A stretch of 64,000 nt of DNA. It comes from an uncultured delta proteobacterium (GTDB lineage: Bacteria > Desulfobacterota > Desulfobaccia > Desulfobaccales > 0-14-0-80-60-11). Within the stretch, counting starts at the first letter, position 1. Each line of letters begins with the position of its first letter. The stretch is taken from NCBI GenBank assembly GCA_963705115.1, contig CAVPIX010000016.1:579051-643050 (forward strand), written 5' to 3'. A model generated the notes under the pieces. That model ran no database searches. It had not been told where the DNA came from and saw nothing but the letters and a program-made list of their open reading frames with translations. Positions 12,091 through 59,725 of the stretch are shown here, one piece after another. Position numbers and translations under genes: made by a program.

Positions 12091-12254
12091 CTCGTTCCCA
12101 AGTTTAACTTGGGAACGAGGTGAATAAAGGTCTTGAGTAGTGAGCTTTTCTCTTCTCGTCCCTTTCTTGTTCCCAAACTAAGCTTGGGAACGTTATTATA
12201 AGCCAAGCTGAGCTTGGCAGCCAGGTGCGCTCCCAAGTGCAACTTGGGAACGAG
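12091..12254. repeat. cluster of four related short hairpins (stem GTTCCCAAG...CTTGGGAAC)
   Basis: CTCGTTCCCAAGTTTAACTTGGGAACGAG (12091-12119), GTTCCCAAACTAAGCTTGGGAAC (12169-12191), GCCAAGCTGAGCTTGGC (12202-12218), CTCCCAAGTGCAACTTGGGAACGAG (about 12230-12254). Confidence 0.8.
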
Positions 12255-12397
12255 CCATTCAAAACCCCATCCAACCCCATCAATGGTAGCACGGGCATCC
12301 TGCCCGTGTCTGGACGGGCTGGAAGCCCGGCCTACCGGGCTTAGGTCTGATTGTGATAATAAGGTGCTTGAACTTTCTAAAAGAAGGATATTTCTAA

Positions 12398-12748: not shown

Positions 12749-12915
12749 TGCATCATTAAGAGAAGACTTGTTATATTGAGTTGCGTTCTTCTGAGCTATT
12801 TTTGTAGCCGCAGGCTTTAGCCTGCGCCTGCACAGGCTGGAAAGCCTGTGCCACCGTTTGCTGGTATGGATAGACAAATTCACCCAGAGACCTCCTGTCC
12901 TTCAAACCGAAAACC

Positions 12916-13641: not shown

Positions 13642-13650
13642 AGGGATATT

Positions 13651-13712
13651 GGGGGAAGGGCCAGGGACCTGAGGTCCCTGCCCTCCCCCCAAGCCCCCCA
13701 CCCAACCCGCAG
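13651..13712. repeat. partial copy (first modules only) of the MITE-like element
   Basis: GGGGGAAGGGCCAGGGACCTGAGGTCCCTGCCCTCCCCCCAAGCCCCCCACCCAACCCGCAG, starting 10 nt after the pcm-2 stop. Confidence 0.7.
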
Positions 13713-13717
13713 AAGGG

Positions 13718-13755
13718 GCTGGCAAGTCAGAACCCTGACTTGCCAGCTATTTTTC
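13718..13755 (+). terminator. rho-independent terminator candidate after pcm-2
   Basis: 13-bp perfect stem GCTGGCAAGTCAG / CTGACTTGCCAGC with 4-nt loop, followed by TATTTTTC. Confidence 0.6.
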
Positions 13756-13912
13756 AGTCCCCTTAAAGGATTGGACGGGCTTCCAGCCCGTCCGGGCACG
13801 GGCTGGAGGCCTGTGCTCCTGCTCTAATGTGAGCGATTGTAGAGGAAGCTCGCCGGAGGGGGCAGGGGGCCGCGACCCCTGGCCCCCTCCCTCAAGTGCA
13901 TTGCCATGCTCC

Positions 13913-14848: not shown

Positions 14849-15029
14849 AGGTTGAACTCCGGAGAGTAATGACTGAAAAATTGTTTGCCCGTCACAAGCT
14901 GCACATTATGTTTTAGTTTCATATAATTTCGATGCAAAATTGGTTAAAGTTATTTGAAATCTCACCGAGTTAAGATACTATAACTGAAAATTACGGAATG
15001 GGGGAAAAAGGGGTTTGGCGGCCGCAACC

Positions 15030-15719
15030 ATGCCCAGGCAATTGGATCGAGAATTAAATGCTCTCAAGCAAAAGCTCCTCATCATGGCCACCAAGGCGGA
15101 AGAGGCAGTGCAGAAGAGCTTGTTTTCCGTCATCCACCGCAACTCCGATTTGGCCCGGGATGTCATTACCGATGACATTCAGTTGAATCAAATGGAGTTG
15201 GAAATCGAAGAACAGGCCTTCAAACTCCTGGCCCTACGGCAACCGGTGGCCACCGATTTGCGTCTGATCATTGCCACCATGCGCATCGCCACCACCCTGG
15301 AACGGATCGGCGACCAGGGAGTGAATATCGCCGAGCGGGCCCTGGAGCTCAACAACGCCCCCCCCGTGGAACTGCCCATCGACATGAAGATGCTGGGTGA
15401 CATGGCCTTTGGCATGGTGCGCACCAGCATCGACGCCTTTGTGCAGCAGGACCCCAAACTGGCCATCCAGGTGTGCCAGCGGGACACCGAGGTGGACCTT
15501 CTGGACGACGAGTACACCCAGAAGATCCTGGACACCATGATCAGCGAGGCCCGCTGGGTGATGCGCCTGCATCACTTCATTATTGTCATGCGGAATCTGG
15601 AGCGCATCGCCGATTTGGCCACCAACATCGCCGAGGACATTGTCTTCATTGTGGAAGGCCGGGTCATCAAGCACAGGTGCGAGGACTGGTTTCTGACCGG
15701 GAATCCAACCTCATCTTAG
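15030..15719 (+). CDS. phoU: phosphate signalling complex protein PhoU
   Basis: Two PhoU repeats (ERIGDQGVNIAE and ERIADLATNIAEDI). ATG at 15030 preferred over the TTG at 15015. Confidence 0.9.
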   Translation: MPRQLDRELNALKQKLLIMATKAEEAVQKSLFSVIHRNSDLARDVITDDIQLNQMELEIEEQAFKLLALRQPVATDLRLIIATMRIATTLERIGDQGVNIAERALELNNAPPVELPIDMKMLGDMAFGMVRTSIDAFVQQDPKLAIQVCQRDTEVDLLDDEYTQKILDTMISEARWVMRLHHFIIVMRNLERIADLATNIAEDIVFIVEGRVIKHRCEDWFLTGNPTSS

Positions 15720-17046
15720 CCTGGGCCATCTTTTCCTCTAAAAATTTTACTTCCTGCTCCAAACGGGGCTGCAACTGGCGATCACGCTCCAGGGTCTGGA
15801 GGGCATGGACCACGGAGCCGTGGCTCCGCTGGAAAAGGCGTCCCAGTTCCACCACGGTCTTCATGGTATAGAGGCGGGAAAAGTAAAGGCCGACCTGCCG
15901 GGCCCGCACCAGCTTTTTCTGCCGGCCGCGCCCTAATAACTCCCTGACGTTGATCTGGTAATAATCGCAGACAATTTTCTGGATCTGGCCGACGCTCAGA
16001 CGGGGGGCCACGGCCTTTAAATCGTGGAGGACTTCCTGGGCCAGGGGCAGGCTCACGGGCTGCCCCAGGAGGGTGGAGCGGGCCACCAGGCAATCCAGGG
16101 CGCTTTCCAGACGGCGCACGTCGCCGCTGATATGCTCTGCCACGTGCTCCATCACCGGGGTGGGCACCTTGACGCCCCGATCCTCCGCTTTTCTGGTCAA
16201 AATCTCCACCCGGGTGGCAAAGTCCGGGGGGGCGATGGGCGTGATGAGGCCGCCGGTGAACCGGGAGCGCAGTTCCTGGGACAGCTGGCTGATTTCACCG
16301 GGAAGGTAACAACTGGTGAGGACCAGCTTTTTGCGGCGGTCCAGCAGGGTGTCCAGGGTATAGCACAGTTCAGCCTGGATCTTCTCCTTGCCCGCGAGAA
16401 ACTGCACCTCTTCCATGAGGAGCACATCGCACTCACCCCGGTAGCGCTCCTTGAACCGGGACATCTGGTCCCCTTTCAGGGCCTTGACCATGTCATTGGT
16501 AAAATCCTCGGCAGTTACATAACGAACGGACGGTTGGGGCGCGGCGGCCAGGAGGCAGTTGCCCACGGCCTGGGCGAGATGGCTCTTCCCCAAGCCGGGG
16601 TTGGCCGTGAGAAACAGGATGCCGCTGAAAAAGGTGTCTTTGCGGGCCAGGGCCTCGGCGGCCCGGAAAGCCAGGCGGTTGGAGCCCCCCACCACAAAAT
16701 TATTGAAGGTGAATTCCCGATTCAGGCTGCGCCCCTGGGGGCGGGCCTGGCCGGGAAGAGGAAGGGTCAGCTGCCCGGCCGCGGGCATCGGCGCCAGGGG
16801 GCGGGGGCGGGACGGGGCCGAGGTCAGCTTTACCGGCAGGGGATGGCCTGCCTGGGTCAACACCTGGCTGATATGGGGGAGATAATGGGACTTGACCCAA
16901 CGAAGCGCAAAAGGATTGGGACAGATGAGCTGGAGTTCACCTCCGGACCCCTGGTCCACCTCCAAGGGCTCAATCCATAAAGAAAATCCTGACGGGGAGA
17001 TGTGGTCCTTCAGATCAGCTTTGACGACTTCCCAAATTTCCTGCAT
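15667..17046 (-). CDS. dnaA: chromosomal replication initiator protein DnaA
   Basis: AAA+ Walker A (NPGLGKSHLAQAVGN), Walker B (LLMEEVQFL), C-terminal DNA-binding helix region (RARQVGLYFSRLYT...LGRLFQRSHGSVVHA). ATG at 17046 preceded by AGGGGG. The 3' end overlaps phoU by 53 nt. Confidence 0.95.
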   Translation of the reverse strand: MQEIWEVVKADLKDHISPSGFSLWIEPLEVDQGSGGELQLICPNPFALRWVKSHYLPHISQVLTQAGHPLPVKLTSAPSRPRPLAPMPAAGQLTLPLPGQARPQGRSLNREFTFNNFVVGGSNRLAFRAAEALARKDTFFSGILFLTANPGLGKSHLAQAVGNCLLAAAPQPSVRYVTAEDFTNDMVKALKGDQMSRFKERYRGECDVLLMEEVQFLAGKEKIQAELCYTLDTLLDRRKKLVLTSCYLPGEISQLSQELRSRFTGGLITPIAPPDFATRVEILTRKAEDRGVKVPTPVMEHVAEHISGDVRRLESALDCLVARSTLLGQPVSLPLAQEVLHDLKAVAPRLSVGQIQKIVCDYYQINVRELLGRGRQKKLVRARQVGLYFSRLYTMKTVVELGRLFQRSHGSVVHALQTLERDRQLQPRLEQEVKFLEEKMAQAKMRLDSRSETSPRTCA

Positions 17047-17464
17047 ATTTCCCCCTATGTTGAGCCGCATATTACTTATCATCTCCCTTGATCGTCAAAG
17101 TCGGTATCTCGAAATAGAGGTTAGCGCCCACAGGAATACACCTTGAGGTAAGGGCCGTTAAACCTCAAGCTTGGCCTCAGCGAACGGAGTAAGGAAATTC
17201 CTTATGGAAGAAAACTCTGATTTAGCCGGTTCTTGGGTCAATTAACCCCGCAAACCTGCCTTCCTAGTAATCTCGCGTTTGCTGCTTTTTTTACGCTTTT
17301 TTATAGGGGAACGCTCAAAGAGGTTACAAAAATTGGTAAGGCGTTAAATTTCCATAAGGATGACTTAACATCTTTTTAATTATAGTTATATCAATACGTT
17401 AATTAAATTAATAGCAACCCTGGGAGCTTCTCTGACAGAGGTCTGGGGAGGCTCTATGGTTCCC

Positions 17465-31799: not shown

Positions 31800-32936
31800 A
31801 TGGGTATTATGGGAAAACATCTGGTTTTAGTGGGCGCGGGACATGCTCACCTGACCTGTCTGAAAAGCCTCCCGGACTTTGTCTCCCGGGGGCATCAGGT
31901 GACGGTCATCGGGCCAGCCATTCACCATTATTATTCCGGCATGGGGCCGGGCATGTTGGGCCAGACTTACCGGCCCCAGGAAATCCGCTTTAACAGTCAA
32001 CGGATGGCCGAAGCCGGGGGAGCCCGCTATGTCATGGGGATGGTGTCCCGGGTGCAGCCCCGGGAGCGGCGGCTGGTGCTGGCTTCGGGGGAGGAAATCG
32101 CTTATGACGCAGTGTCCTTCAACATCGGCAGCGGCATCCCCAAAGAGAAAGTCGATATCCAGGACGACGCCAACGTCTTCACCGTCAAGCCCATTGAACA
32201 GCTCCGCCGGGCCCAGGAGGCCATTTTGGGGCGCGTCGGGGCCAAGCCGCTGGCAGCGGTGGTGGTGGGAGGCGGGCCTGCAGGGGTGGAGATTGCCGGC
32301 AACCTCTGGCGCCTGGTAACCAATAACCAAGGGACCGTCAACCTCACCCTGGTGGCCGGGCGGCGGCTCATGGCCGATTTTCCCGACAAGGTGCGGGGGC
32401 TGGCCCTGGCCTCTTTTCAAGGCCGGGGCATCCGCGTCCTGGAAGGCGCGCATCTCCAGGAGATTCAGGCCGGCCGGGCCGTGCTCGCCAACGGCCAGGA
32501 ATTGCCCTTTGATTTCCTCTTTCTGGCCCTGGGTGTGAAGCCCCCCAGCCTGTTTCAGGATTCCGGCCTGCCCACTGGACCGGACGGCGGTCTCCTGGTA
32601 AATGAATGCCTGCAATCCGCGGCCTTTCCGGAGATATTCGGCGGGGGCGATTGTATTTATTTCCAGCCCCAACCTCTGGATAAGGTGGGGGTCTACGCGG
32701 TGCGGCAAAACCCAGTGTTGCGGGACAACCTCATGGCCGCCCTGGAGGGCCGCCAGTTCACACCTTTCCGCCCCGGCGGCGCCTATCTTCTCATCTTCAA
32801 TCTGGGAAACGGGCGTGGAATTTTTACGAAAAAACCACTGGTCTTTGACGGCCGCCCGGCTTTCTGGCTGAAAGATTTCATCGACCGCCGCTTCATGCGC
32901 AGCTTTCAGATATCGGGGGAACTGAACGAGGTGTGA
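31800..32936 (+). CDS. FAD-dependent pyridine nucleotide-disulfide oxidoreductase family protein
   Basis: 378 aa; N-terminal dinucleotide fold KHLVLVGAGHAH, second fold AAVVVGGGPAGVEIAG, FGGGDC near the C-terminal third. Confidence 0.8.
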   Translation: MGIMGKHLVLVGAGHAHLTCLKSLPDFVSRGHQVTVIGPAIHHYYSGMGPGMLGQTYRPQEIRFNSQRMAEAGGARYVMGMVSRVQPRERRLVLASGEEIAYDAVSFNIGSGIPKEKVDIQDDANVFTVKPIEQLRRAQEAILGRVGAKPLAAVVVGGGPAGVEIAGNLWRLVTNNQGTVNLTLVAGRRLMADFPDKVRGLALASFQGRGIRVLEGAHLQEIQAGRAVLANGQELPFDFLFLALGVKPPSLFQDSGLPTGPDGGLLVNECLQSAAFPEIFGGGDCIYFQPQPLDKVGVYAVRQNPVLRDNLMAALEGRQFTPFRPGGAYLLIFNLGNGRGIFTKKPLVFDGRPAFWLKDFIDRRFMRSFQISGELNEV

Positions 32937-41734: not shown

Positions 41735-43099
41735 ATGGCAGAAGAAGTAAAAGAAATCAAAGTCAGCCGAAAGGACCGCAAAATAGGCGGCATCGCCCCT
41801 GAACTGGCGGATCGCTGTTATACCTGCGGAACCTGCTCCGGCGGCTGCCCGGCCACAGGTCTGCTGCCCATTGAAGGCGGCGCCGGCACCTGGGACCCCC
41901 GCAAGGCCATCCGGGCTATTGTCTTCGGCATGGAGCAGGAAGTCATCGACTCCAAATGGCCCTGGGTATGCACCGGCTGCGGCCGTTGTCAGTACCAGTG
42001 CCCCATGGGCATTCAGCTCATGCGCACCTTCCGGGCCTGCCGCACCCACCGGAACCGGGACAAGGTCCCCGGCCCCATCCACAAGGGCACCATGATGAAC
42101 CTGGAGCGGGGCAACAACCTGGGCATCCCCAAGGACGACTTCCTTTTCCTGTTGGCCGAGTTGGGCAAGGAGATGGAAGAGGAATGCTGCCCCGGCTTCT
42201 ATGTGCCGGTGGACAAGGAAGGGGCCAACGTCATCATCACCATCAACTCCAAGGAACCCTTCGGCGAACCGGACGACATGAAGTTCTGGTGGAAAATTTT
42301 CTACGCCGCCAAAGAGGACTGGACGGTATCCTCGGTAAACTGGGAAGGGGTCAACTGGGGGCTTTTTTCCGGCGACGACCCGGCCTGGAAGGAGCAAACG
42401 CACCGGGTCCTCGACAACGCCCGACGATTAAAATGCAAAACCCTTTTGCTCCCGGAATGAGGGCACGCATACTTTGCAACCCGGGCCGGGTTCAAAAATT
42501 GGTTTCCTGAAGCGTTTGAAGAATTCAAGGTGGTCAGTGTCCAGGAACTCCTGAAAGAGTACATTGAGGAGGGCCGGATCAAGCTCGATCCCTCCGTCAA
42601 CCATCACACCATTACGGTGCACGACCCCTGCAACTATGTGCGCAAGTCCCAGATAACCTTTGGCGACCACATGGGGGAACTCAACCGCTGGATCACCCAG
42701 CAGTGCGTCGATCCCTCCCTGTACCGGGAAATGTGCGACGATCCCCTGAACAACCACTGCTGCGGCGCCGGCGGCGGCGCCTGGGCCATGCCCTACGACA
42801 ACGAGCGCCTGGCTTACGGCAAAGTCAAGGTCGACCAGATTCGGGATACCGGGGCGCAGATCGTCATGGCCCCCTGCCACAACTGCCGGGACCAGATCAT
42901 GAAGGGTCTGGCCGGCGAGTTTAAAAAGGGCACGGAAGGCTTTGACATGGGCAACTACGAAGAAACCTTATATCTCTGGGAGCTGGTGGCCAACACCCTG
43001 GTGGTGGAGCCCTGGAGCGAGGAGGAGATCGAAGCCGCCCATGCGCTGCGGGACGCCCAGTTCGAGCGGGACGGCATCGAGCTCGAGGAAGAAGAATAA
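41735..43099 (+). CDS. HdrD/DsrK-like Fe-S CCG-domain oxidoreductase, read through in-frame TGA (42458-42460) as selenocysteine
   Basis: Track ORFs 41696..42460 and 42530..43099 share one frame; the 23 codons between them are open. Motifs: CYTCGTCSGGCP and CTGCGRCQYQCP (2x[4Fe-4S]), LLLPE-TGA-GHAYF, then CCG domain PCNYV...HCCGAGGG...PCHNCRDQ. GGTGGAGG RBS before ATG 41735. Confidence 0.75.
42473..42496 (+). promoter_or_regulatory. candidate bacterial SECIS hairpin for TGA 42458
   Basis: UUUG(C)AACCCG-GGC-CGGGUU-CAAA: about 10 bp with one bulged C, starting 12 nt after the UGA; apical loop 27-29 nt from the U of UGA. Confidence 0.5.
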
Positions 43100-43636: not shown

Positions 43637-44756
43637 TCACCCAGATACATCCTCGCCGGGGTTCAGCAAATAGGCCTCCACGAAACCCTGGAGGTCGCCG
43701 TTCAGCACCCGGTCCACGTCCCCTTCTTCGTGTTTGGTGCGGTGGTCTTTCACCATGCGGTAGGGCTGGAGCACATAGGAGCGTATCTGGCTGCCCCAGG
43801 CGATGTCCTTCTGGGTCTCCTGGAGTTCCTGGCGCTTTTCATCCCGCTTGCGCCGTTCCAGATCATAGAGCCGGGCCCGCAGGACCTTCATGGCCAGTTC
43901 CCGGTTGCGGTGCTGGGAACGCTCGCTCTGGCTGATGACCACGATGTTGGTGGGCAGGTGGGTGAGGCGCACCGCGGAGCTGGTCTTATTGACGTGCTGG
44001 CCCCCGGGGCCGCTGGCCCGGAAGGTGTCCACCCGCAGGTCCTTGTCCTGGATTTCAATGCTTATGCGGTCGTCCACTTCCGGAAGCACCTGCACCGCGG
44101 CAAAGGAGGTGTGGCGACGGCCGCTGGCGTCAAAGGGAGAAATGCGCACCAGGCGATGAATGCCGTGTTCGCTCTTAAAATTGCCGTACGCGTATGGACC
44201 GCTGGCCGAAAAAGTGGCGGACTTTACCCCGGCCTCGTCCCCTTCCTGGAGGTCGATGGTTTCCGTCTTGAAGCCCTTGATTTCCGCGTAGCGCAGATAC
44301 ATGCGCAGGAGCATTTCGCACCAGTCCTGGGCCTCGGTGCCGCCGGCGCCGGCGTGAATGGTGATGATGGCGTTTCTCTGGTCGTCTTCGCTCCCCATGA
44401 GGAGCTGCAGCTGCCATTCCTTGAAGTCCCGGTCGAGGGTGGCCAGCCCCGCGGCCACCTCCTGCATGGACTGGAGGTCTTCCTCCTCCCGGGCCAACTC
44501 CAGGAGCACCTCCAGGTCCTCCACCTGGCGAGCCTGGCGGTCATAGCCCTCTAAGGCGTTGATGAGGCCGCTTCTCTCCCGCTGGACTTCAGCCGCAGCC
44601 TGGGGGTCTTCCCAAAACGCGGCCTCAGCCATGATCTTATCTATTTCAGCCAGGCGCGCCTGTTTTTTGTCCAGCTCAAAGAAAACTCCGCAGGGCCGCA
44701 AGGCGGTCCTGGTATTCAGCCAACTTGGACTTGTATTCTCCGTAGAATTCCAGCAT
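43637..44756 (-). CDS. prfB: peptide chain release factor 2, with programmed +1 frameshift
   Basis: Frame 0: ATG (44754-44756) MLEFYGEYKSKLAEYQDRLAALRSFL then TGA. The +1 frame continues ELDKKQARLAEIDK...SPFDASGRRHTSFAAV...GPGGQHVNKTSSAVR.... AAGGAG RBS upstream. Confidence 0.95.
44676..44681 (-). promoter_or_regulatory. RF2 autoregulatory +1 frameshift site CUU UGA G
   Basis: mRNA ...GCGGAGUUUUCUUUGAGCUG...: slippery CUU + UGA, with an internal SD-like GGAG 4 nt upstream, as in the classical prfB site. Confidence 0.9.
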
Positions 44757-45105
44757 ATTTTCTCCTTGCCTTTACCGTGAAAGTCCCTGGTAGGGGCGAC
44801 GCATGCGTCCCCCTGTAACAAATTTTTGTTTTCGGGGGGGGCGCCAATGCAGGGTGGGCACCGCCCACCAATAATGGCGGGCAGGGAGGCCCGCCCTACC
44901 GACCTTTCCATTATGTGATTCAACGGACCTTGGCCTGGCTCGTGAGCAAGACCGAAGTCTTAAATTCCCTTTGAGATATTGGAAACGAAATGCTGACGGG
45001 CAACAAGATGAGCTGGCGTCCTGGCGACCGTCGTCACCCGGGCGTCACAGGCCGGACCAGTTATGCAGAATGAGAATTGCTAAGGCGAACATATTGTTAA
45101 TGTTA

Positions 45106-48053: not shown

Positions 48054-48590
48054 ATGACCCAGAAGCGCTTGCAGCAAGGTCTCATTCAGGTTTACACCGG
48101 GGAGGGCAAGGGCAAGACCACCTGTGCTTTGGGCCTGGCCCTGAGAGCCGTGGGCCAGGGTTTCAAGGTTTTCATGGTGCAGTTCCTCAAAACCGACGAC
48201 ACCGGCGAAGCCAAGGCGGCCCGTCGCCTGGCCCCGGAATTTACCATGCAGACCTTTGGGGTGCCGGGTTTCCCCAGCCTCACCAATCCCGATCCCAGGA
48301 CCCTGGCGGTGGCCCGGCAGGCCTATGACCTGGCTCGGGAAATCATCCTGGCCGGCGAGTACGATCTGGTCATCCTGGATGAGGTCAATCTCTCACTGAC
48401 CTACGGCTTGGTGCCCCTGGCCGAGATGCTGGAGGTCCTGCGCCGGCGTCCGCCGTATGTGGAAGTGGTCCTCACCGGCCGCAGCGCCCCGGCGGAATTG
48501 GTGGAAATGGCCGATCTGGTCACGGAAATGCGCCCCGTGAAGCACTATTATGAGGCCGGGGTCAAAGCCCGCCGGGGCATTGAGTGGTGA
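48054..48590 (+). CDS. cobO: cob(I)yrinic acid a,c-diamide adenosyltransferase (CobO/BtuR type)
   Basis: 178 aa; GLIQVYTGEGKGKTTCALGLALRA..., VILDEVN.... Confidence 0.9.
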   Translation: MTQKRLQQGLIQVYTGEGKGKTTCALGLALRAVGQGFKVFMVQFLKTDDTGEAKAARRLAPEFTMQTFGVPGFPSLTNPDPRTLAVARQAYDLAREIILAGEYDLVILDEVNLSLTYGLVPLAEMLEVLRRRPPYVEVVLTGRSAPAELVEMADLVTEMRPVKHYYEAGVKARRGIEW

Positions 48591-48821
48591 GAGGAATCTT
48601 TTGAAGGACAATTTCTCATGATCCCTTGGCTCGCAAAATCACTAAGTTTTCGGTAGGGCGGGCCTCCGTGCCCGCCATCATGGTACGTAATACCTGTCTG
48701 CGGTCAGACAGTGGCACAGGCTGAAGCCTGCGGCTACAAAAAAATTGCATATAAAATGCAACTGTTATAAGACGCATCCTACAGATCGAAACTCGAAACT
48801 TTTACAGAGGATCAACTATAA

Positions 48822-49082
48822 ATGGAGAAGGACTTTTTAACCACCCTCACCTTTGCGGTAGCCGGCATGGAGGAACAGGGCGGCTTTCTCTGAGTGGGCT
48901 GTCCCGACGCCGTGTGCGGCGAGATCAAGAATATTCCGGGGGTCACCCGGGTGGAGTTCGACCAGGAAACCCGCCTGTTTCAGGTGGATTTTCATAAACG
49001 CTTTGTGACCCCGGCAGACATTTTCGTGGCGGTCTGGGAGGCGGGGAAGAAAATGGGAAAGGAGTACCTCCCCAGACTGTAA
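48822..49082 (+). CDS. small HMA-fold-like protein read through in-frame TGA (48891-48893) as selenocysteine, giving a U-V-G-C motif
   Basis: ATG 48822 MEKDFLTTLTFAVAGMEEQGGFL-TGA-VGCPDAVCGEIKNIPGVTRVEFDQETRLFQVDFHKRFVTPADIFVAVWEAGKKMGKEYLPRL*. The track ORF starts at the GTG immediately after the TGA. The beta1-like TLTFAVAGM lies upstream of the TGA in the same frame. Confidence 0.55.
48908..48921 (+). promoter_or_regulatory. candidate SECIS hairpin for TGA 48891
   Basis: CGCCG-UGUG-CGGCG, 5 G:C-rich bp; loop contains GU and lies 23-26 nt from the U of UGA. Short, so only suggestive. Confidence 0.35.
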
Positions 49083-49096
49083 GCTGACAGCCTTTT

Positions 49097-50110
49097 TCAG
49101 GCCCACACCCCATCAATGGCCGCCTGGCATTTGGGGCACTTGCCGTCCTGCAAAATGAACCCCTTGATGGCATACCCCAGGCGCTCGATCAGGAGTTCCC
49201 CGCAGCTGTAGCAGTAGGTGTTTTCCCCGCCCTGCCCCGGAATGTTCCCCGTATAGACATAGCGTAGGCCGGCTGCGACACCGATGTCCCGGGCTTTGAG
49301 CAGGGTCTCCGCCGGGGTGCGGGGCCGGTCCAGCATCTGGTAGGTGGGGAAAAAGGCGCTCACATGCCAGGGGATCTCCGGCCCCACCCCCTTGATGAAC
49401 TGGGCGATGTCGGTAAGCTCCTCCGTGGAGTCATTGTGTCCCGGGATCACCAGGGTGGTGACCTCGAGCCACACCCCCAACTTTTTCAGGCGCTGGATGG
49501 TGTCCAGGACCGGCTGCAGGCGGGCCTTGCAGACCTTGCGGTAAAAGTCGTCCCGGAAGCTTTTGAGATCAACGTTGTCCCCGGCCACGACCTCGGCCAT
49601 AGCGGTGGCCGACTCCTCAGTCATGAAGCCGTTGCTGACAAAGACATTGCGGATGCCTTGCTCCTTGGCCAACCGGGCCGTGTCCAGGGCAAACTCCATG
49701 AAAATGGTGGGCTCGGTGTAGGTATAGGAAATGGTGGCGCAGCGGTTGGCCTGGGCTTCCCGGACAATCGCCTCCGGGGAGCGCTCCATGCCGGGGATTT
49801 TTCCCTGGTGCCGTTTGGGGAACTGGGAAATGTCGTAGTTCTGGCAATGGAGGCACATGAAGTTGCAGCCCGCGGTGGCGATGGAGTAAGAGCGGGATCC
49901 CGGCAGGAAATGGAACAGAGGCTTTTTCTCGATGGGGTCGATATTTTCCGCCACCACCATGCCGTACACCAGGGAGTAGAGGGTGCCGTCCTGATTCTCC
50001 CGCACGTGGCAGAGTCCCCGTTTCCCCGGATCGATTTTGCATTCATGGGCGCACAGGTGACACTGGACCTTGCCTTCCTCCACCTTGTCGTAAAACCTGG
50101 CTTCGTGCAT
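49097..50110 (-). CDS. AmmeMemoRadiSam-system-type radical SAM enzyme (PFL-activase-like)
   Basis: 337 aa from ATG 50110 (GGAG RBS); MHEARFYDKVEEGKVQCHLCAHECKIDPGKRGLCHVREN..., radical-SAM cluster motif CNFMCLHCQN. Confidence 0.85.
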   Translation of the reverse strand: MHEARFYDKVEEGKVQCHLCAHECKIDPGKRGLCHVRENQDGTLYSLVYGMVVAENIDPIEKKPLFHFLPGSRSYSIATAGCNFMCLHCQNYDISQFPKRHQGKIPGMERSPEAIVREAQANRCATISYTYTEPTIFMEFALDTARLAKEQGIRNVFVSNGFMTEESATAMAEVVAGDNVDLKSFRDDFYRKVCKARLQPVLDTIQRLKKLGVWLEVTTLVIPGHNDSTEELTDIAQFIKGVGPEIPWHVSAFFPTYQMLDRPRTPAETLLKARDIGVAAGLRYVYTGNIPGQGGENTYCYSCGELLIERLGYAIKGFILQDGKCPKCQAAIDGVWA

Positions 50111-53586: not shown

Positions 53587-54584
53587 TCTTCACCTCAGGT
53601 CTAAATGTGGAACTCCTCGGGTTAATTGTTCCCCTTTCCCTGGAAGGCATCCGGCCAGCCGCCGTGCAGGTTGATGACTTCGTCGATTTCCTTCATGAGG
53701 CGGATGGTTTCGTGGAGGGCGATGACGATGCGGTGGTAGTGGGTGAGGTCGTCTGCCGAGAGGGTTCGGCCCTTACGGTCCTTGAGCCATTTCTGGCAGA
53801 CTTGATAGCCGCCGATGTGGAAGCTCCAGACCTCTTCGGGGACGCCGTGGAAACCGATGGAGCCGGTCACGGCATCGTTGGGGCCGCCAGGGCCGCCCTT
53901 GGCCTTCTTGGATTTGACCGCGTCCAGCCAGACCGTGTCGTCCGACCGCCCCACCTTCTCGACGACAGGACCAACGGGGCCGGTGAAGGTAAGGACCACG
54001 GGCAGTCGGTGACCAGGGGCGATGTCGTAGCGCCACGCCTTGGCGGGTTGGTCGTAGCGGGCGTGGAGAGCCTGTTGCATCGGGGCCTCAACCAGGTGAA
54101 GGGATACGAGTTCGCCGCCTAACTGGGCCAAGGCGTGGAATAGTTCGAGGCTCGACGCAAGCGGTAGGCGGGGGAAATCGATTTTCAGAAACTCTGAATA
54201 TCGGGATCTGTATTTGGGGCTGTGAAGCACCGCATATGCATAATGGAAGATGTCCTCAGGTGTTAAGCCTTGAGGCAAACCATGGGGGACTGCTTGAGGA
54301 ACACTAAGATTATTAGCCAATGATCTCAAGAATTCCGGCCTGAGGTTGGGTTGTCGTTTATATGATAGCGCCAAGGCTTTTCCGTCTGGATAAAGCCAAA
54401 AGGGGAAAGAGATAGTTTACCTCTTTCAAGGACACCGAATGACTCTCTGTCATTATCCTCGTGATTTTGCTAACCTAAAAATGACCCCCCTGGGGAGGTT
54501 TTGGGAACCCAAAAGTGACCCCCCTGACACTGACTTCTGATACCACTGGTGACCATCACCAAAGTGGGATCAGAGGTGGAAGGG

Positions 54585-56078
54585 ATGATCAGGATGGATC
54601 AGTATGGGTATATCCGCACCGCGCACCGGGTTTACCAGAAGAGCATCAAGCAGATTTGCCGGGAGACCGGTCATTCCCGGAAAACGGTGAGAAAGGTCCT
54701 CCGGAGTGAACCATGTGGCTATGCCCCCAGGACTGAGCAACCGTATCCAGTGTTGGGGCCCTACCTCCAGGTCATTGATCAGTGGCTGACAGAGGATAGA
54801 GCCAGGCCCAGGAAGCAACGGCACACCGCCAAGCGTATTTATGACCGCTTGGTGCGGGAACTGGGCTTTCAGGGCCATGACTCCACGGTGCGGCGCTATG
54901 TCCGCCAGGCCAAGAGGCGTTTGGGAGTGCAGGTGACGCCGGCTTTTATCCCCCTGGATCCGGAAGTGGGCCGGGAAGCCGAGGTAGACTGGGGTGCAGC
55001 CACAGCCATCATCGCCGGCGAGAGGATAACGATAAAATTTTTCTGCATGCGGTCCAAGTTTTCCGGGAAGCATTTCGTGCGCTGCTACCCTTGTGAGCGG
55101 CAGCAAGCCTTCCTGGACGGTCATCTCCATGCCTTTGCCTTTTTCAAGGGCATCCACGCCGTTCTGGTCTATGACAACCTGACCTCGGCAGTGAAGAAGG
55201 TCTGCCGCGGCAAAGTGCGTATCGAGCAGGAAGAGTTTGCCAAGTTCCGGGCCTACTATAATTTTACGGCGCGCTTTTGCAACCCTGACGGCGCCCACGA
55301 GAAGGGCGGGGTCGAAGGACTGGTGGGTTACGTGCGGCGGAACTACCTGGTGCCGGTGCCTGAGGCCGAGAGCCTGGAAGCCTTGAATGACAGACTTCTG
55401 GAGGAGTGTCTGGCCTATGGCGAGCACCGGATCAGGGGCCGGGAAGGCACCGTCAACGAGTTGTTTGCCGGGGAGCAGGGCCGTCTGTTACCGCTCCCGG
55501 CCGCACCCTTCAGCCTCACACAGATCACCTCCGGCAAGGTGGACGCCTATGCCACGGTGATCGTGGACAAGAACCGCTATTCCGTGCCCAGTGTCTACGC
55601 GGGGTTAAGAGTCCAGGTGCAGTTATCCGTGACTCACCTGGAGATCTTCCATAACGGCAAGAAGCTGGCCAGGCATCCCCGGGTCTTTGGTAACAACAAG
55701 TGGCAGCTTGACCCGGACCACTACCTGGAGCTGATTCAGCAAAGACCTGGCGCCTTTCACGACGCCCGGCCGCTGCGCCGCTGGCGGGAGACCTGGCCTC
55801 CCTGCCTGGAAAAACTTTTGGCCAGGTTCCAGGAGAATCAGGGAGAAACCGCGGGCATCAAGGATTTTATCTCGGTGCTGATGCTCTATCGGGAGCATCC
55901 GGGTGAGGCGATTGCGGCCGCGGTGGAACTGGCCTTGAAGAACCACCTCAGTTCCAGCCAAGGGGTGAAACATCTCCTGCAGCAGAGCAAGGTGGAACGC
56001 TCGGCGCCTCTTCCGCAATGGCCGGCGACCTTGGTGCCCGACCTCTCCGTTTATGGCCAGTTGGGAGGGGTGTCATGA
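54585..56078 (+). CDS. istA: IS21-family transposase IstA
   Basis: 497 aa; N-terminal HTH (KQICRETGHSRKTVRKVL), DDE integrase-core region; stop overlaps the istB ATG (ATGA). Confidence 0.9.
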   Translation: MIRMDQYGYIRTAHRVYQKSIKQICRETGHSRKTVRKVLRSEPCGYAPRTEQPYPVLGPYLQVIDQWLTEDRARPRKQRHTAKRIYDRLVRELGFQGHDSTVRRYVRQAKRRLGVQVTPAFIPLDPEVGREAEVDWGAATAIIAGERITIKFFCMRSKFSGKHFVRCYPCERQQAFLDGHLHAFAFFKGIHAVLVYDNLTSAVKKVCRGKVRIEQEEFAKFRAYYNFTARFCNPDGAHEKGGVEGLVGYVRRNYLVPVPEAESLEALNDRLLEECLAYGEHRIRGREGTVNELFAGEQGRLLPLPAAPFSLTQITSGKVDAYATVIVDKNRYSVPSVYAGLRVQVQLSVTHLEIFHNGKKLARHPRVFGNNKWQLDPDHYLELIQQRPGAFHDARPLRRWRETWPPCLEKLLARFQENQGETAGIKDFISVLMLYREHPGEAIAAAVELALKNHLSSSQGVKHLLQQSKVERSAPLPQWPATLVPDLSVYGQLGGVS

Positions 56079-56869
56079 AAGCCACCACGGAGATGGTGCT
56101 CACCGACAACCTGCAGACGCTCAAGCTCTCCCATATGCTGCGCCACCTGGAACCGCAACTCCGCCAGGCCCGGGAACAGAGCCTGGACTACGGCGACTTC
56201 CTGCTCTCCTTAACAGAGCTCGAACTGGAGGGGCGGGCCGAGAACCGCCTGAGACGGCGGCTAAGGGAGGCCAAGTTCCCGCTGCTGAAGACGCTGGAGA
56301 TGTTTGACTATCATGCCGCCCCGGGTCTGGACCGACGTCTGCTGCACCAACTGGCTTCGGGGGAATATATCAGCCAGCCGCGCAACGTCATCTTTTTGGG
56401 CAAAAGCGGCACGGGCAAAACCCACCTGGCTACAGGCCTGGGTGTGGAGGCCTGCCGCCAGGGTATTACCACCCGCTTTGTCACCGGCTGCGGTCTGGCC
56501 AACGAACTCCTGGAGGCACGCCAGGGGCTCGCCCTGAGCCGCATCATTAAACGATATGCGCGCTATGGTCTGCTCATCCTCGATGAACTGGGATATGTCC
56601 CCTTCTCCAAAGAAGGCGCCGAATTGCTCTTCCAGGTGTTGGCGGAACGGCATGAACGGGGGTCGGTGATCATTACGTCCAACCTGGGCTTTGCCGACTG
56701 GACCCAGGTTTTTGGCGAGCCCACCCTCACTGCGGCGTTGTTGGATCGCCTGACCCATAAAGCCCATATTATCACCTGTGACTGGGAAAGCTTCCGGCTC
56801 CAAGAGAGTTTGAAAGTGAAAGGTGGAGCAGCCAAAGAGAAATCGAGGCAGGCCAGCCTTGGCCGGTAG
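56075..56869 (+). CDS. istB: IS21-family ATP-binding helper protein IstB
   Basis: 264 aa; Walker A FLGKSGTGKTHLATGLG, Walker B LLILDELGY. Confidence 0.9.
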   Translation: MKATTEMVLTDNLQTLKLSHMLRHLEPQLRQAREQSLDYGDFLLSLTELELEGRAENRLRRRLREAKFPLLKTLEMFDYHAAPGLDRRLLHQLASGEYISQPRNVIFLGKSGTGKTHLATGLGVEACRQGITTRFVTGCGLANELLEARQGLALSRIIKRYARYGLLILDELGYVPFSKEGAELLFQVLAERHERGSVIITSNLGFADWTQVFGEPTLTAALLDRLTHKAHIITCDWESFRLQESLKVKGGAAKEKSRQASLGR

Positions 56870-59725
56870 AACGTTCACGGCAGGATGGCAGGGCGCGCTC
56901 GGCCTGCCCTGCATGTCCCTGGTGCCGGCAGGCCGAGCACGCTTTGCCCCGGCCCGTCTGGCTTACAAACTTCAACTAACCAGACAAGAGGGGGGGTCCC
57001 TTTTCGGTTCCCACAGGGGGTCACTTTTAGGTTCCCATTTACAATCCTCGCACAAATCACATGGCTGAAAGCGCCCACTTCCACTTTTCGAGTGGTCATC
57101 AAGCCCACATTTTGATTGTCAATCATATTTGACATGATAGCGGTTGCCGGCCGCGCAATGAAACCTTTGGTTCTGCCAGTGTAGTAGATGAAACGTTTAT
57201 CGAAGGGGCGATATAGAATTGGTTTGATCAGAGCCTTAGACAAGGGACTTGACCGAATATCCCTCCTTGGGCGAGCGCAACCTTCCAATCTTGCACATCA
57301 TTTCTAAGGTTAAACTCCTCACGCGCTTGCTCCTCGTCTAGTTCGGCAAATCTCTGGACACGCGTCCAAATCTCGTCGAGATTAATGGCAATCGTTAAAT
57401 GATCTCTTAGCTGTTACAACCCCCACAGAATGGAGAATCGTTGCCTCTGAAAGCAAAGGCATAAGCTCAAATTCTTCTCGGTGTGTTTGATCTTGGGCAA
57501 TAAAAAGGTAGAATGGGTTGCTTGGCCAGAGCTTATCGCACACAAGTGAATGCACTGAACTGGTAGTGAGGGAAAGATATTTCTTTCGCGACTGCCAAAT
57601 AAATCACCATGCATTACTGACGTATTTGATGATTTTGCTACCAACGTTCTGACAAAAAGGCCGACGGCAACCCCTTGCTGAATGTCAAAAACGTTTGCAT
57701 CGGGAGTTCCATCTGGGGCTGTTTCCTTTTTTTTGGTGTTGCCGTGGAGGTTGATTAACTGGCACCGCTGGAATGAGTTCAACAAACTCTTCCTCATCCC
57801 CCTGAATGTTGGATTATCCAAATACCCGTGATTTGTTATGTAGCCAAGGACTCCATGGCCAGCGTGTTCAACAAGTAGTTGGCCCAAACGGATAAACTTT
57901 ACATAATCATCTTGAAGCCAGAGTTTCTTCTCGCCAAGAGGTTCTCCATCGATGGTCTTGTAGGAATCGACCAAATGAACAGCATGTTCAGAATTGTTTG
58001 ATGAAACACCCGCATACGGCGGATTGCCAATGACAACGGTGAAGCGCTGGCAACGTTTGATGGTATTGACTGCTTGGGCTTCGTGGTCAAGGGCGGGTAT
58101 CATAGAAGCAAATCGGCCCGAGAAGTCATGAGCCGGCTCCAAGGCGTTCGTCAGGTAGACGCGCACGCGCTCCATCGCTACCGAAATGGTAACCCGTCTC
58201 ATAAAGCTTGAGCCCGATCTTCATGTGGGCAACGGCGTAGGGGGCCATGAGCAGTTCGTAGCCGTAAAGCCGAGGGAGGAGGTTCCGAGGGACATAGTCA
58301 TTCCAGAGGTGTTCGATTTCTCTGGGGCTGCACCCCTGGTCCTGCCACTTCTTAGTCATGGTTTTATGGATGAGGTCGATGACCTCCACGATAAAAGTGC
58401 CGGTGCCGGTGGCCGGGTCCAGGATTTGGACGAAGGGTTCCTCGGGCTTGGTGCCTTCCGGGATGGTGAGGCCCTCGTGACGCTCTACCATTTCACCCCA
58501 GGTGGTCGTGTCGGCAAGGCCGTCGGTCAAGCCAAATTCGGTGCGCAAGAGATCATCTACCGAACGGACAATATAGGAGACCACCGGCCGGGGGGTATAA
58601 AAAATTCCCCGTTTCATCTTCTGTTCGGCATCATATTCCTTCAGGAAGAGTTCGTAAAAGTGGATGACCGGGTCCTCTTCGGGCTTTAAGTCTCCGAAAT
58701 CCCGGACCACGGCTTCCATGTTGGCGGCGTCCAAGAGCTCCACCACCTCGCTCACCCCAAGCTCATCGAAGTCGATACCAGGGCCCTTGCCGACCTTCCC
58801 TTTGCGGCCCCCCACGTCCAGAAAGGTCTCCATGAGCTCTTTAAGGAAGGGATTGGTGACCGGCATCTGAGCTGCCAGATCGTCGGCGGTCTTGCCCTGA
58901 GGGTTTTCTACCCGAGCCGAGAGGAGGCCGTAAGCGATAGTTTGGGCATACATATCCGCAAAGCCTTCAGCGTCCAAGTCGTGGACCAGGGCCTCCTGGA
59001 AAGCCTTCATGATTTTGGTCAAGGGGCCATCCTTGGTTTCGATCTTCAGGATGGTCCTGATGCGGTCCCGGATGGCCCGGGCCAGTTCAGCCAAGCTTAC
59101 GGCCAAATCCCGGGAAGTATTAATAACCTCCTGGTGGCGCAGGGTGAAAGCCTCCCGCCAGATCCTGCGCCAGTCTTCCAAATCATCCGGATCATCCGGC
59201 CAGGATAGCCTTCCAACCAGCATTTTCGCCACATGGTCGAGGTGGAGAGGAGTGTCCAGGTTGTCCCAGCCGAGGACCTTGAGGGTGGGCAAATCATTCT
59301 TCCGGCCATGCTGGGCGAAGTGCGCAAAGCTGATGTGCCGGTCGCCCCCCTCGCCGTAGTTGGAGATAAAGAGCAAGTCGTCAGCCTGCCAGGCGGCGCT
59401 CTCAGCCCTGTTGGCCGAAGCCCGCTTCTTCAATACTACCCGGCTCAGGATGCGCCGCAGGGCCACAACGGGAAGGCGCTTGGGCTCAAACTTGACGAAG
59501 AAGATGCCCCAGGGCTGGTTTACATCCAAGGGGCGCAGACGTTTGATCTCCTGGATCTTGGCGGCGTTGGCTGGGTCGATGCCGAGCTCCTCGGGGGAGT
59601 AATCGAAGGTCAGTTCCTCGAAGTCCTCGTCAAGAATCGGCCAGTCCAGTTCATCCCGCAGGAACTTGATCAGGGACGGAAAGGTGCGAATCTGCCGCAA
59701 TCTCTCCCGGTAATCCGTCATTGGT

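What the first reader, a model, noticed from the sequence alone, without database searches (positions are those of the whole stretch)
48822..49082. Small HMA-fold-like protein with an in-frame UGA creating a U-x-x-C redox/metal motif
Seen in sequence:
- An ATG at 48822 opens a frame that runs 23 sense codons to TGA (48891-48893). It then continues without interruption for 62 more codons to TAA at 49080-49082.
- The read-through product is MEKDFLTTLTFAVAGMEEQGGFL-U-VGCPDAVCGEIKNIPGVTRVEFDQETRLFQVDFHKRFVTPADIFVAVWEAGKKMGKEYLPRL.
- A G:C hairpin CGCCG-UGUG-CGGCG starts 17 nt after the U of UGA.

Established knowledge:
- Heavy-metal-associated (ferredoxin-like) domains have the pattern beta1-GMxCxxC-helix-...GV-beta2.
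- Here the second Cys of UVGC sits 13 residues before the GV of IPGV, as in HMA domains. The only beta1-like strand (TLTFAVAGM) lies upstream of the TGA.
- UxxC is the classical selenoprotein version of CxxC.

Inference: this is a selenoprotein rather than the 62-aa GTG-initiated ORF in the track. I do not recall an HMA-type selenoprotein family being well described, so it may be new.
Basis: partly seen in the sequence, partly recalled or inferred. Interest (0 to 1): 0.75.

Follow-up and report, generated by a model that had tools for sequence, protein, structure and literature searches.

The report
Mis-annotated small HMA-fold selenoprotein gene
This is a real 86-residue selenoprotein gene that databases record as a truncated 58-64-residue ORF: selenocysteine replaces the first metal-binding cysteine of a copper-chaperone-like (HMA) fold, and the family is missing from current selenoprotein catalogues, although related HMA-type selenoproteins are already known.

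Summary
ATG 48822 opens a frame with one in-frame TGA (48891-48893) that ends at TAA 49080-49082.

The TGA almost certainly encodes selenocysteine:
- All 18 distinct related loci with readable DNA keep a TGA in that column.
- The 22 codons upstream evolve like coding sequence.
- The codon after the TGA is often not a start codon.
- One full-length homologue has Cys (TGT) there.
- A divergent branch has two in-frame TGAs (UxxU).
- Another gene in the same window has a TGA that aligns with a Cys in 99 of 120 homologues, so this genome decodes Sec.

Profile alignment places U24 and C27 on the two Cys of the HMA motif GMTCxxC. An AlphaFold model of a family member matches CopZ, MerP and ATP7B domains.

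The SECIS evidence is weaker. There is only a 5-bp conserved hairpin with no covariation. However, synonymous sites in codons +2 to +9 are nearly frozen.

The novelty claim is only partly right. HMA-type selenoproteins already exist (NF041115 UxxU, the MerT/CopZ fusion NF045683, Sec-containing P-type ATPases). This extended-loop family (GGΦxUxGCPDAV…KMGKEYLP) reaches no Pfam or NCBIfam cut-off and is not among the 119 families in a 2026 inventory.

The function is probably soft-metal or metalloid binding. This is inferred, not shown.

The parts
48806..48811 (+). Shine-Dalgarno-like AGAGGA, 10 nt upstream of the ATG
   Evidence: Read directly from the sequence. Relatives have AGGAGG- or GGAGGA-like motifs before the equivalent start.
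48822..49082 (+). Full coding sequence of the 86-residue selenoprotein (ATG to TAA, with Sec at codon 24)
   Evidence: The upstream 22 codons differ between relatives at codon positions 1/2/3 by 0.27/0.18/0.50. The 60 nt before the start differ by 0.71/0.73/0.72.
48891..48893 (+). In-frame UGA, read as selenocysteine (U24). It is equivalent to the first Cys of the HMA motif GMTCxxC.
   Evidence: TGA is present in all 18 distinct relatives with DNA. The Cys homologue P0122/L026 has TGT here. Alignment to HMA CxxC is shown.
48900..48902 (+). Cys27 codon (TGT), the second ligand of the U-x-G-C motif. It is itself TGA in the UxxU branch.
   Evidence: Invariant Cys in alignment A2. It is TGA in L027-L030.
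48897..48920 (+). Codons +2 to +9 after the UGA, where synonymous variation is almost absent. This indicates a constraint at the nucleotide level, probably the Sec-insertion element.
   Evidence: GGC 16/17, CCC 15/17, GAC 17/17, GCC 15/17, GTG 17/17, TGC 11/11, GCC 11/11. Mann-Whitney p = 0.003 against other four-fold codons of the gene.
48905..48921 (+). Conserved SECIS-like hairpin CG-A-CGC[CGUGU]GCG-N-CG. Its loop begins 17 nt after the UGA.
   Evidence: RNAalifold consensus over 17 sequences has 5 pairs. All are invariant except two C-to-U wobble changes at column 15, and there is no covariation. In L002 the internal mismatch becomes an A-U pair.
48054..48590 (+). cobO/cobA (cob(I)yrinic acid a,c-diamide adenosyltransferase), the conserved upstream neighbour on the same strand. 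This is context only and is not shown to be functionally linked.
   Evidence: NCBIfam NF004637 scores 203 bits against a cut-off of 185. It lies upstream in 17 related loci, with gaps of 5-231 nt.

Best explanation
Window 48822-49082 encodes one 86-residue cytoplasmic selenoprotein.

**Translation.** It starts at ATG 48822. UGA 48891 is recoded to selenocysteine by the SelB/tRNA-Sec machinery. A short G+C-rich hairpin immediately downstream (48905-48921), lying in a stretch whose synonymous sites are frozen, probably guides the recoding.

**Fold.** The product folds as a heavy-metal-associated (ferredoxin-like, beta-alpha-beta-beta-alpha-beta) domain. Sec24 and Cys27 occupy the positions of the two metal-ligand cysteines of CopZ, MerP and Atx1. 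They sit at the end of a loop lengthened by about 7 residues (GM-EEQGGFL-U-VG-C).

**Likely function.** The protein most likely binds a soft metal or metalloid ion, of the Cu(I), Hg(II) or As(III) kind, between a selenolate and a thiolate. It would then hand the ion to a partner, as a metallochaperone does.

**Shown versus inferred.**
- Shown here by comparative sequence analysis: the reading frame, the conserved UGA, the Sec/Cys pairing, and the sequence alignment to HMA.
- Predicted: the fold.
- Inferred: the metal-binding role and the identity of the ligand.
For: **Reading frame and recoding**
1. TGA is in the same column in all 18 distinct related loci, including relatives only 47-48% identical. 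The upstream peptide xGM(E/V)(E/Q)xGGhx is conserved.
2. The upstream 22 codons show coding periodicity: pairwise differences are 0.27/0.18/0.50 at codon positions 1/2/3. The 5' non-coding DNA is about 0.72 at all three positions.
3. The codon after the TGA is GTG, GCN, ATG or AGC, so the annotated GTG start is not conserved.
4. The full-length homologue P0122 has Cys (TGT) at the Sec column: GGFT-C-VGCPEAV.
5. A divergent branch has TGA at both ligand positions: GGFT-U-IG-U-PDAI. Reinitiation after a stop cannot explain this.
6. Database entries that span the site carry W there, which comes from translating TGA with genetic code 4.

**Sec decoding in this genome**
7. The Fe-S/CCG protein gene at 41735-43099 has an in-frame TGA at 42458. 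This aligns with Cys in 99 of 120 full-length homologues (LLLPE-C-GHAY). It also matches the catalogued 'Fe-S oxidoreductase-like, UGH' selenoprotein family.

**HMA identity**
8. The profile of the family aligns gGfl-C-vG-C-Pdav onto xGMT-C-xx-C of ATP7B, CopA, MerP and CopZ without gaps.
9. The AlphaFold2 model of family member P0075 has pLDDT 80. Its best PDB matches are HMA domains only, with target-normalised TM 0.77-0.86.

**Sec-insertion element**
10. Synonymous sites in codons +2 to +9 are nearly invariant, and a conserved 5-bp hairpin overlaps them.

**Context consistent with metal or metalloid handling**
11. A UxxU member lies next to a bona fide NF041115 MerP-like selenoprotein.
12. 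Group-b members lie inside an ACR3-ArsM-...-ArsE-like cluster.
Against: - selA, selB, selC and selD are not in the 64-kb window, so Sec decoding is inferred from a second selenoprotein gene rather than observed.
- The hairpin is short. It shows no compensatory changes and folds no better than shuffled sequence. No Rfam SECIS model matches.
- The window protein scores below the Pfam HMA gathering threshold (18.2 against 24.8 bits) and far below every NCBIfam cut-off.
- The structural model is of a 42-45% identical relative with Trp at the Sec position, and confidence is lowest around the loop (pLDDT 64 for residues 31-40).
- No metal ligand is identified.
- Gene contexts differ between clades (cobO; RidA and class II RNR; ars/lipoyl cluster), so none pins down the function.
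- There are no expression or protein data.
Confidence: 0.9

Rival explanations
1. The gene is a selenoprotein, as above. However, the U-x-x-C pair acts as a redox couple (selenenylsulfide/selenol-thiol) in thiol-disulfide or peroxide chemistry, not as a metal site. Confidence refers to function only, given that it is a selenoprotein.
For: - Most UxxC selenoproteins are thought to be redox proteins (PMC13188914).
- Group-b members are flanked by thioredoxin, CcdA/DsbD, two DGC-domain proteins, OsmC, dihydrolipoyl dehydrogenase, LipA/LplA and an ArsE-family thioredoxin-like protein.
- L028 has a TlpA-like redoxin upstream.
Against: - The fold is HMA, not thioredoxin-like.
- HMA CxxC sites are known as metal sites (established knowledge of CopZ, MerP and Atx1).
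- The same group-b cluster also carries ACR3, ArsM and ArsP, which handle a thiol-binding metalloid.
- L027 pairs a family member with a MerP-like selenoprotein.
Confidence: 0.3
2. UGA 48891 is an ordinary stop. The locus encodes a 23-residue leader peptide and a separate 62-residue protein that starts at GTG 48894, as in the existing annotation.
For: - Gene callers produce this model for every database entry: 58-64 aa, named 'copper chaperone CopZ' or 'hypothetical protein'.
- TGAGTG would allow termination-reinitiation in this window.
Against: - In many relatives the codon after TGA is GCG, GCA or AGC, which are not starts.
- The upstream segment is conserved as protein and supplies beta-strand 1 of the fold.
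- There is a Cys (TGT) homologue with an uninterrupted frame.
- The UxxU relatives have a second TGA 9 nt further on, which would end any reinitiated ORF.
Confidence: 0.03
3. UGA is read as a standard amino acid (Trp or Gly, genetic code 4 or 25) or by near-cognate read-through, not as Sec.
For: Some database translations show W at this site.
Against: - TGA terminates ordinary genes in the same window, for example cobO at 48588-48590 and the radical SAM gene at 49097-49099.
- The site pairs with Cys in a homologue and aligns with a metal-ligand Cys. This is the Sec/Cys signature, not Trp or Gly.
- The lineage is Desulfobaccales, which is not known to use code 4 or 25 (established knowledge).
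Confidence: 0.02

Closest known systems
NCBIfam NF041115 'UxxU_metal_bind' metal-binding (seleno)protein, listed as 'putative mercuric reductase' N-terminal-like in PMC13188914 Table 1
   Same: Both are small HMA-fold proteins in which Sec replaces the metal-ligand Cys of GMTCxxC. A bona fide member (118.7 bits) lies directly beside a UxxU member of the present family in L027.
   Different: - The window protein scores 12.9 bits against a cut-off of 95, and other members of its family score 20-46 bits.
- NF041115 has the compact GMT-U-xx-U loop. The L027 example also has a signal peptide.
- The present family has about 7 extra residues (xxxGGhx) before the Sec, a U-x-G-C-PDAV motif, and a conserved C-terminal AG(K/R)KMGKEYLP.
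CopZ, MerP, Atx1 and the HMA metal-binding domains of P-type ATPases (Pfam PF00403). [quoted passage not shown]
   Same: - The fold is the same beta-alpha-beta-beta-alpha-beta.
- The two ligand positions and the spacing to the 'GV' before strand 2 align without gaps.
- UxxC in an HMA domain is already known from the ATPase family.
   Different: - The window protein is below the Pfam gathering score (18.2 against 24.8) and far below the CopZ and MerP NCBIfam cut-offs.
- It has Sec instead of the first Cys, a longer loop, and is a stand-alone protein rather than a domain of a pump.
- No copA, merA or merT neighbour is present in this window.
NF045683 MerT/CopZ fusion-like heavy metal transport selenoprotein, and MbdU (NF045648) metal-binding double selenoprotein
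   Same: Both are selenoproteins proposed to bind heavy metals through Sec.
   Different: - The window protein has no detectable match to either model at E <= 10.
- A related family member scores 12.4 bits against a cut-off of 375 for NF045683.
- The architectures and motifs differ (membrane fusion; CU dipeptide).

Membership tests
Bacterial selenoprotein gene (UGA recoded to Sec) | In-frame UGA conserved among homologues, with protein-level conservation on both sides | tested here: met
   18 of 18 distinct loci carry TGA in the same column. Upstream codon-position differences are 0.27/0.18/0.50, against about 0.72 in non-coding DNA.
Bacterial selenoprotein gene (UGA recoded to Sec) | Homologues with Cys aligned to the UGA | tested here: met
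   P0122/L026 has an uninterrupted 83-aa ORF with TGT at the site. At a greater distance, it aligns with the first Cys of the HMA CxxC. Only one Cys-form cluster was seen among the best 150 representatives.
Bacterial selenoprotein gene (UGA recoded to Sec) | SECIS stem-loop immediately 3' of the UGA | tested here: inconclusive
   There is a conserved 5-bp hairpin at 48905-48921. Its loop has G at the second position and begins 17 nt after the UGA. From my memory of the published bacterial SECIS consensus, this spacing fits. Synonymous sites are frozen. However, there is no covariation, the energy is no better than shuffles, and there is no Rfam hit.
Bacterial selenoprotein gene (UGA recoded to Sec) | Sec machinery (selA, selB, selC, selD) in the same genome | not testable with these tools
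   These genes are not in the 64-kb window: the only tRNA is tRNA-His, and none of the ten large ORFs scanned is SelA, SelB or SelD. There is indirect support. A second gene in the window has a TGA aligned to Cys in 99 of 120 homologues and matches the known 'UGH' Fe-S oxidoreductase selenoprotein family.
HMA domain (Pfam PF00403) | Score at or above the Pfam gathering threshold | tested here: not met
   18.2 bits against 24.8, E = 0.0034, covering residues 23-57 only. One group-b relative (P0088) has a precomputed PF00403 hit.
HMA domain (Pfam PF00403) | beta-alpha-beta-beta-alpha-beta ferredoxin-like fold | tested here: met
   The AlphaFold2 model of family member P0075 has strands 18-29, 33-35, 53-59, 64-70 and 95-99, and helices 40-48 and 76-89. 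The top 50 Foldseek PDB matches are all HMA domains. This is a model of a relative, not of the window protein itself.
HMA domain (Pfam PF00403) | GMxCxxC metal-binding motif at the junction of loop 1 and helix 1 | tested here: inconclusive
   U24 and C27 align with the two Cys. The canonical GM (G15-M16) is separated from them by a 7-residue insertion, and the residues aligned to 'GMT' are G-F-L. Metal binding was not tested.
NF041115 UxxU metal-binding (seleno)protein | Score at or above the curated cut-off (95 bits), with the UxxU motif | tested here: not met
   12.9 bits, and the motif is UxxC. The positive control, L027 gene 1, scores 118.7 bits.
CopZ / MerP (NF033795, TIGR02052) | Score at or above the curated cut-off | tested here: not met
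   24.3 bits against 91 for CopZ, and 23.4 against 92.55 for MerP.

The most novel reading that the evidence does not exclude
The extended-loop U-x-G-C protein is a dedicated selenium-based chaperone for a specific pathway rather than a generic metal buffer. One possibility is an As(III)/metalloid carrier that feeds ArsM or ACR3 and protects lipoyl dithiols, as suggested by the group-b ACR3-ArsM-GcvH-DGC-DGC-[gene]-OsmC-Lpd-LipA-LplA cluster. The other, in Desulfobaccales, is a partner of the corrinoid adenosyltransferase CobO, directly downstream of which it sits in 17 loci. That partner would be a cobalt/corrinoid-handling selenoprotein.
Probability: 0.15. Interest if true: 0.7.

Novelty: new member of a known kind. 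Interest (0 to 1): 0.45.

Why it matters
**Annotation.** Several hundred database entries for this family are truncated at the UGA. The profile search found 423 clusters at E <= 1e-3, and the top hits are recorded as 58-71 residues and named 'CopZ' or 'hypothetical'. Those entries lack beta-strand 1 and the selenocysteine ligand.

**Cataloguing.** The family reaches no Pfam or NCBIfam cut-off and is not among the 119 prokaryotic selenoprotein families listed in a 2026 review. Adding a model would correct the annotation of Desulfobaccales and related genomes.

**Biology.**
- It adds a third ligand arrangement (U-x-G-C, with C-x-G-C and U-x-x-U sister forms) to the HMA-type selenoproteins.
- This gives a natural series for asking what selenium contributes at a soft-metal site.
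- It occurs in a sequence that UniRef assigns to the cultivated sulfate reducer Desulfobacca acetoxidans, so it can probably be tested at the bench.

Tried and rejected
**Searches that found nothing useful**
- Rfam at gathering threshold over the whole window, and at E <= 10 on 48560-49100, gave no SECIS family, only noise.
- The hairpin's thermodynamic stability is not distinguishable from shuffles in any of 5 sequences.
- The promoter and terminator scan around the gene was uninformative.
- Literature searches for an HMA/CopZ/metallochaperone selenoprotein of this type, or for selenoproteins of Desulfobacca or Desulfobaccales, found nothing specific.

I used database proteins that span the site with W instead (alignment A3).
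- The look-up of encoding contigs returned no DNA for P0064 and P0094, and only a 794-nt contig for P0001.

**Ideas tested and rejected**
- The tandem-Usp gene of this window might be a remnant of the group-b cluster. It is not: only 22% identity.
- L003 was a false relative, matching only a PGVTRVEFD word.
- A PDB sequence search for the Fe-S protein did not reach its CCG domain.
- A scan of the window for other in-frame-TGA genes found only the Fe-S/CCG gene convincing.
- Reinitiation at GTG 48894 and a code-4 reading of TGA were both considered and rejected (see rival explanations).

Full report
**1. The observation**

The coordinates are exact.
- ATG lies at 48822-48824.
- TGA lies at 48891-48893, after 23 sense codons.
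- 62 further codons follow, then TAA at 49080-49082.
- The translation is MEKDFLTTLTFAVAGMEEQGGFL*VGCPDAVCGEIKNIPGVTRVEFDQETRLFQVDFHKRFVTPADIFVAVWEAGKKMGKEYLPRL.
- AGAGGA lies at 48806-48811, 10 nt before the ATG.

The mechanical ORF list contains only the 62-aa GTG ORF at 48894-49082.

**2. Is the UGA read through? Comparative evidence**

*Database entries are all truncated.* A search of 5.8 billion proteins with the read-through sequence (U written as C) returned 22 close homologues. All were 58-64 residues and began at or after the TGA position.

*The DNA tells a different story.* Fetching DNA from genome and metagenome collections gave 23 relevant loci, 18 of them distinct. Every one has TGA in the same column, preceded by a conserved peptide: M-x-x-D-F-L-x-x-h-T-F-x-V-x-G-M-E-E-x-G-G-h-L. 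This includes L020-L022, which are only 47-48% identical to the window protein (GMVQxGGF[VT]-TGA-MGCPDAV), and L025 (GMLQRGGFV-TGA-SGCPDAV).

*The annotated start is not conserved.* The codon after the TGA is GTG, GTC, GCG, GCA, ATG or AGC. Where it is Ala or Ser, gene callers fell back to a GTG seven codons further on, giving the 58-aa 'VCDEIK…' entries.

*The upstream segment evolves as coding sequence.* Among the 14 close loci, pairwise differences in the 22 codons before the TGA are 0.27, 0.18 and 0.50 at codon positions 1, 2 and 3. The 60 nt before the start codon differ by 0.71-0.73 at all three positions.

*Longer database entries are mistranslations.* A profile search found six longer entries (100-142 aa) that span the site with W. 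The DNA of one of them (L025) shows that the W is TGA translated with genetic code 4.

*Cys and double-Sec forms exist.* An exhaustive HMMER search of 1.84 billion cluster representatives added two informative forms.
- P0122 is an uninterrupted 83-aa ORF with Cys, GGFT-C-VGCPEAV, and the codon is TGT in L026.
- A divergent branch has both ligand positions as TGA: GGFT-U-IG-U-PDAI in L027, and similarly in L028-L030. A second in-frame TGA 9 nt after the first cannot be reconciled with 'stop and reinitiate'.

**3. Does this genome decode Sec?**

The window holds no tRNA-Sec. None of the ten large ORFs I scanned is SelA, SelB or SelD.

The window does hold a second candidate selenoprotein gene. 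The frame 41696/41735-43099 is interrupted only by TGA at 42458-42460.
- The read-through product is an HmcF/DsrK/TmcB-like Fe-S protein with CCG domains. One HMM stretch spans the TGA.
- Among the 120 best full-length homologues, the column opposite the TGA is Cys in 99 (LLLPE-C-GHAY).
- 'Fe-S oxidoreductase-like protein, motif UGH' is a catalogued selenoprotein family (PMC13188914 Table 1).

TGA also ends ordinary genes here, such as cobO and the radical SAM gene, so a reassigned genetic code is excluded.

**4. The recoding signal**

RNAalifold on 17 sequences gives a consensus hairpin in columns 15-31 (window 48905-48921): ((.(((.....))).)), with loop CGUGU.
- All five pairs are invariant, apart from C-to-U at column 15 in two sequences, which keeps a G-U wobble. 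There is no covariation.
- In L002 the internal mismatch becomes an A-U pair.
- Folding energies are not better than shuffles, and Rfam has nothing.

Independent support comes from synonymous sites. Codons +2 to +9 are almost fixed: GGC 16/17, CCC 15/17, GAC 17/17, GCC 15/17, GTG 17/17, TGC 11/11, GCC 11/11. Four-fold codons elsewhere in the gene average about 1 bit of codon entropy. The Mann-Whitney test gives p = 0.003.

I therefore treat the element as probable but unproven.

**5. What the protein is**

*Scores against curated models.* The window protein is a weak HMA match in Pfam (E = 0.0034, below the gathering score). In NCBIfam it is a weak match to CopZ, MerP and NF041115, all far below their cut-offs.

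*Profile-level homology.* The family profile finds ATP7B (E = 3e-15), CopA, MerP (7e-6) and CopZ in the PDB. The alignments are gap-free from gGfl-C-vG-C-Pdav on xGMT-C-xx-C through helix 1, 'GV' and strand 2. Thus Sec24 corresponds to the first ligand Cys and Cys27 to the second.

It has pLDDT 80.
- The order of elements is beta-alpha-beta-beta-alpha-beta.
- An extra short strand (GFV) is formed by the ~7-residue insertion between the canonical G-M and the Sec.
- Confidence is lowest in that loop.
- Foldseek against the PDB returns only HMA domains, including 2l3m, MerP 1osd, HMA7 and ATP7B, with target-normalised TM 0.77-0.86.

**6. Context and function**

*Close Desulfobaccales relatives.* The gene lies 5-231 nt downstream of cobO on the same strand (17 loci). 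It is convergent with an AmmeMemoRadiSam radical SAM gene (12 loci). cobU, cobT and cobS lie beyond cobO. These genomes are closely related (neighbour proteins are 74-92% identical), so this may be inherited gene order rather than functional linkage.

*Group b (44-48% identical).* These members sit in a co-directional cluster with the following gene order:
1. ACR3-type SBF
2. Usp
3. thioredoxin
4. CcdA/DsbD
5. ArsM (313.9 bits against a cut-off of 263)
6. thioredoxin-like protein
7. GcvH
8. DGC
9. DGC
10. the gene studied here
11. OsmC
12. dihydrolipoyl dehydrogenase
13. LipA
14. LplA
15. ArsE-family thioredoxin-like protein

L032, from Desulfobacca sp. RBG_16_60_12, carries an ArsP permease gene. 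Another group-b member, L020, instead follows RidA and a class II ribonucleotide reductase.

*UxxU forms.* Several have lipoprotein signal peptides. One lies beside a bona fide NF041115 MerP-like UxxU selenoprotein, and one beside a TlpA-like redoxin.

*Reading.* The common thread is thiophilic metal or metalloid handling and thiol redox chemistry. I therefore favour a soft-metal/metalloid-binding, chaperone-like role (about 0.55) over a purely redox role (about 0.3). Neither is demonstrated.

**7. Comparison with what is known**

That is not so.
- NCBIfam has NF041115 (UxxU metal-binding selenoprotein) and NF045683 (MerT/CopZ fusion selenoprotein).
- The 2026 inventory of 119 prokaryotic selenoprotein families lists these, a Sec-containing cation-transporting ATPase (UxxC), a mercuric transport protein, and MbdU.

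The present family is none of them. It scores 12.9 bits against 95 for NF041115, while a true member scores 118.7. No NCBIfam or Pfam model reaches its cut-off for any form I tested. No table entry matches its motif. Literature searches found no description.

The profile search returned 423 sequence clusters at E <= 1e-3. Some of the weaker ones may be ordinary HMA proteins. One is a sequence that UniRef assigns to Desulfobacca acetoxidans, annotated as a 64-aa 'heavy-metal-associated domain-containing protein'.

**8. Verdict**

- The selenoprotein reading is strongly supported (0.9).
- The HMA-like fold and the U/C ligand positions are supported.
- The SECIS is plausible but weak.
- The function is inferred.
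- Novelty: this is a new, uncatalogued family of an already known kind (Sec in the metal site of an HMA-fold protein). It has an unusual extended loop and natural CxGC, UxGC and UxxU variants.
- Interest is moderate. It is useful for annotation and as a model for selenium at soft-metal sites, but it would not surprise a selenoproteome specialist.

Noticed in passing
window 41696 (or ATG 41735)..43099, + strand; TGA at 42458-42460: This is a second selenoprotein gene, encoding an HmcF/DsrK/TmcB-like Fe-S protein with CCG domains (KTLLLPE-U-GHAYF). The TGA aligns with Cys in 99 of 120 full-length homologues. The motif matches the catalogued 'Fe-S oxidoreductase-like, UGH' family. A hairpin (UUGC.AACCCG-GGC-CGGGUUCAA) follows 15 nt after the UGA.
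   Followed up: yes
L027 33-332 and 371-664 (NCBI GCA_044344285.1, 784-nt contig): Two adjacent double-Sec HMA genes. The first is a signal-peptide MerP-like protein, GMT-U-AS-U-P, and is a bona fide NF041115 member (118.7 bits). The second is an extended-loop GGFT-U-IG-U-PDAI protein of the family studied here.
   Followed up: partly
L034 1-10210 (also L035, L022, L032): A long co-directional cluster joins arsenic genes (ACR3-type SBF, ArsM, ArsE-family thioredoxin-like protein, and ArsP in L032) to a lipoyl module (GcvH, dihydrolipoyl dehydrogenase, LipA, LplA). It also contains two DGC-domain proteins, OsmC, thioredoxin and CcdA, with the HMA-like selenoprotein in the middle. This is an unusual pairing of arsenic resistance with a dedicated lipoyl-protein system.
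   Followed up: partly
window 48591-48821; core 48654-48679 (+) and 44873-44898 (-): The cobO-to-gene spacer is 231 nt here, against 5-105 nt in most relatives. It folds into a row of hairpins (z = -3.6). Its 26-nt palindromic core TAGGGCGGGCCTCCGTGCCCGCCATC recurs, with 2 mismatches, upstream of prfB. It looks like a REP-like intergenic repeat. A separate inverted repeat, TTGCAT-ataaa-ATGCAA, lies at about 48747-48763.
   Followed up: partly
window 43637-44923, - strand: A peptide chain release factor 2 (prfB)-like ORF. Its listed N-terminal extension looks out of frame, as expected if the usual programmed +1 frameshift is present. I did not verify this.
   Followed up: no
window 54549-56869 (+), flanked by 53622-54374 (-) and 56875-58202 (-): This pair of ORFs (509 aa and 283 aa, the second with a P-loop GKSGTGKT) resembles, by eye, the two genes of an IS21-family insertion sequence. 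It appears to be inserted between fragments of a methyltransferase/restriction-type gene on the opposite strand. No family search was run on these ORFs.
   Followed up: no
window 31800-32936, + strand: A pyridine nucleotide-disulfide oxidoreductase that matches TIGR03169 'Nterm_to_SelD', the domain fused to SelD in some species. It scores 252 bits, below the cut-off of 310. This may be a faint link to selenium metabolism. SelD itself is not in the window.
   Followed up: no
window 7229-17082: yidC, mnmE and dnaA are present, so the window lies next to the chromosomal replication origin region.
   Followed up: no
L026 2381-2632: The Cys form (TGT) of the family keeps 4 of the 5 hairpin pairs seen in the Sec forms, with a C-G to G-C swap at alignment columns 18/28. 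This rests on a single sequence and may be chance or a relic of a Sec ancestor.
   Followed up: no
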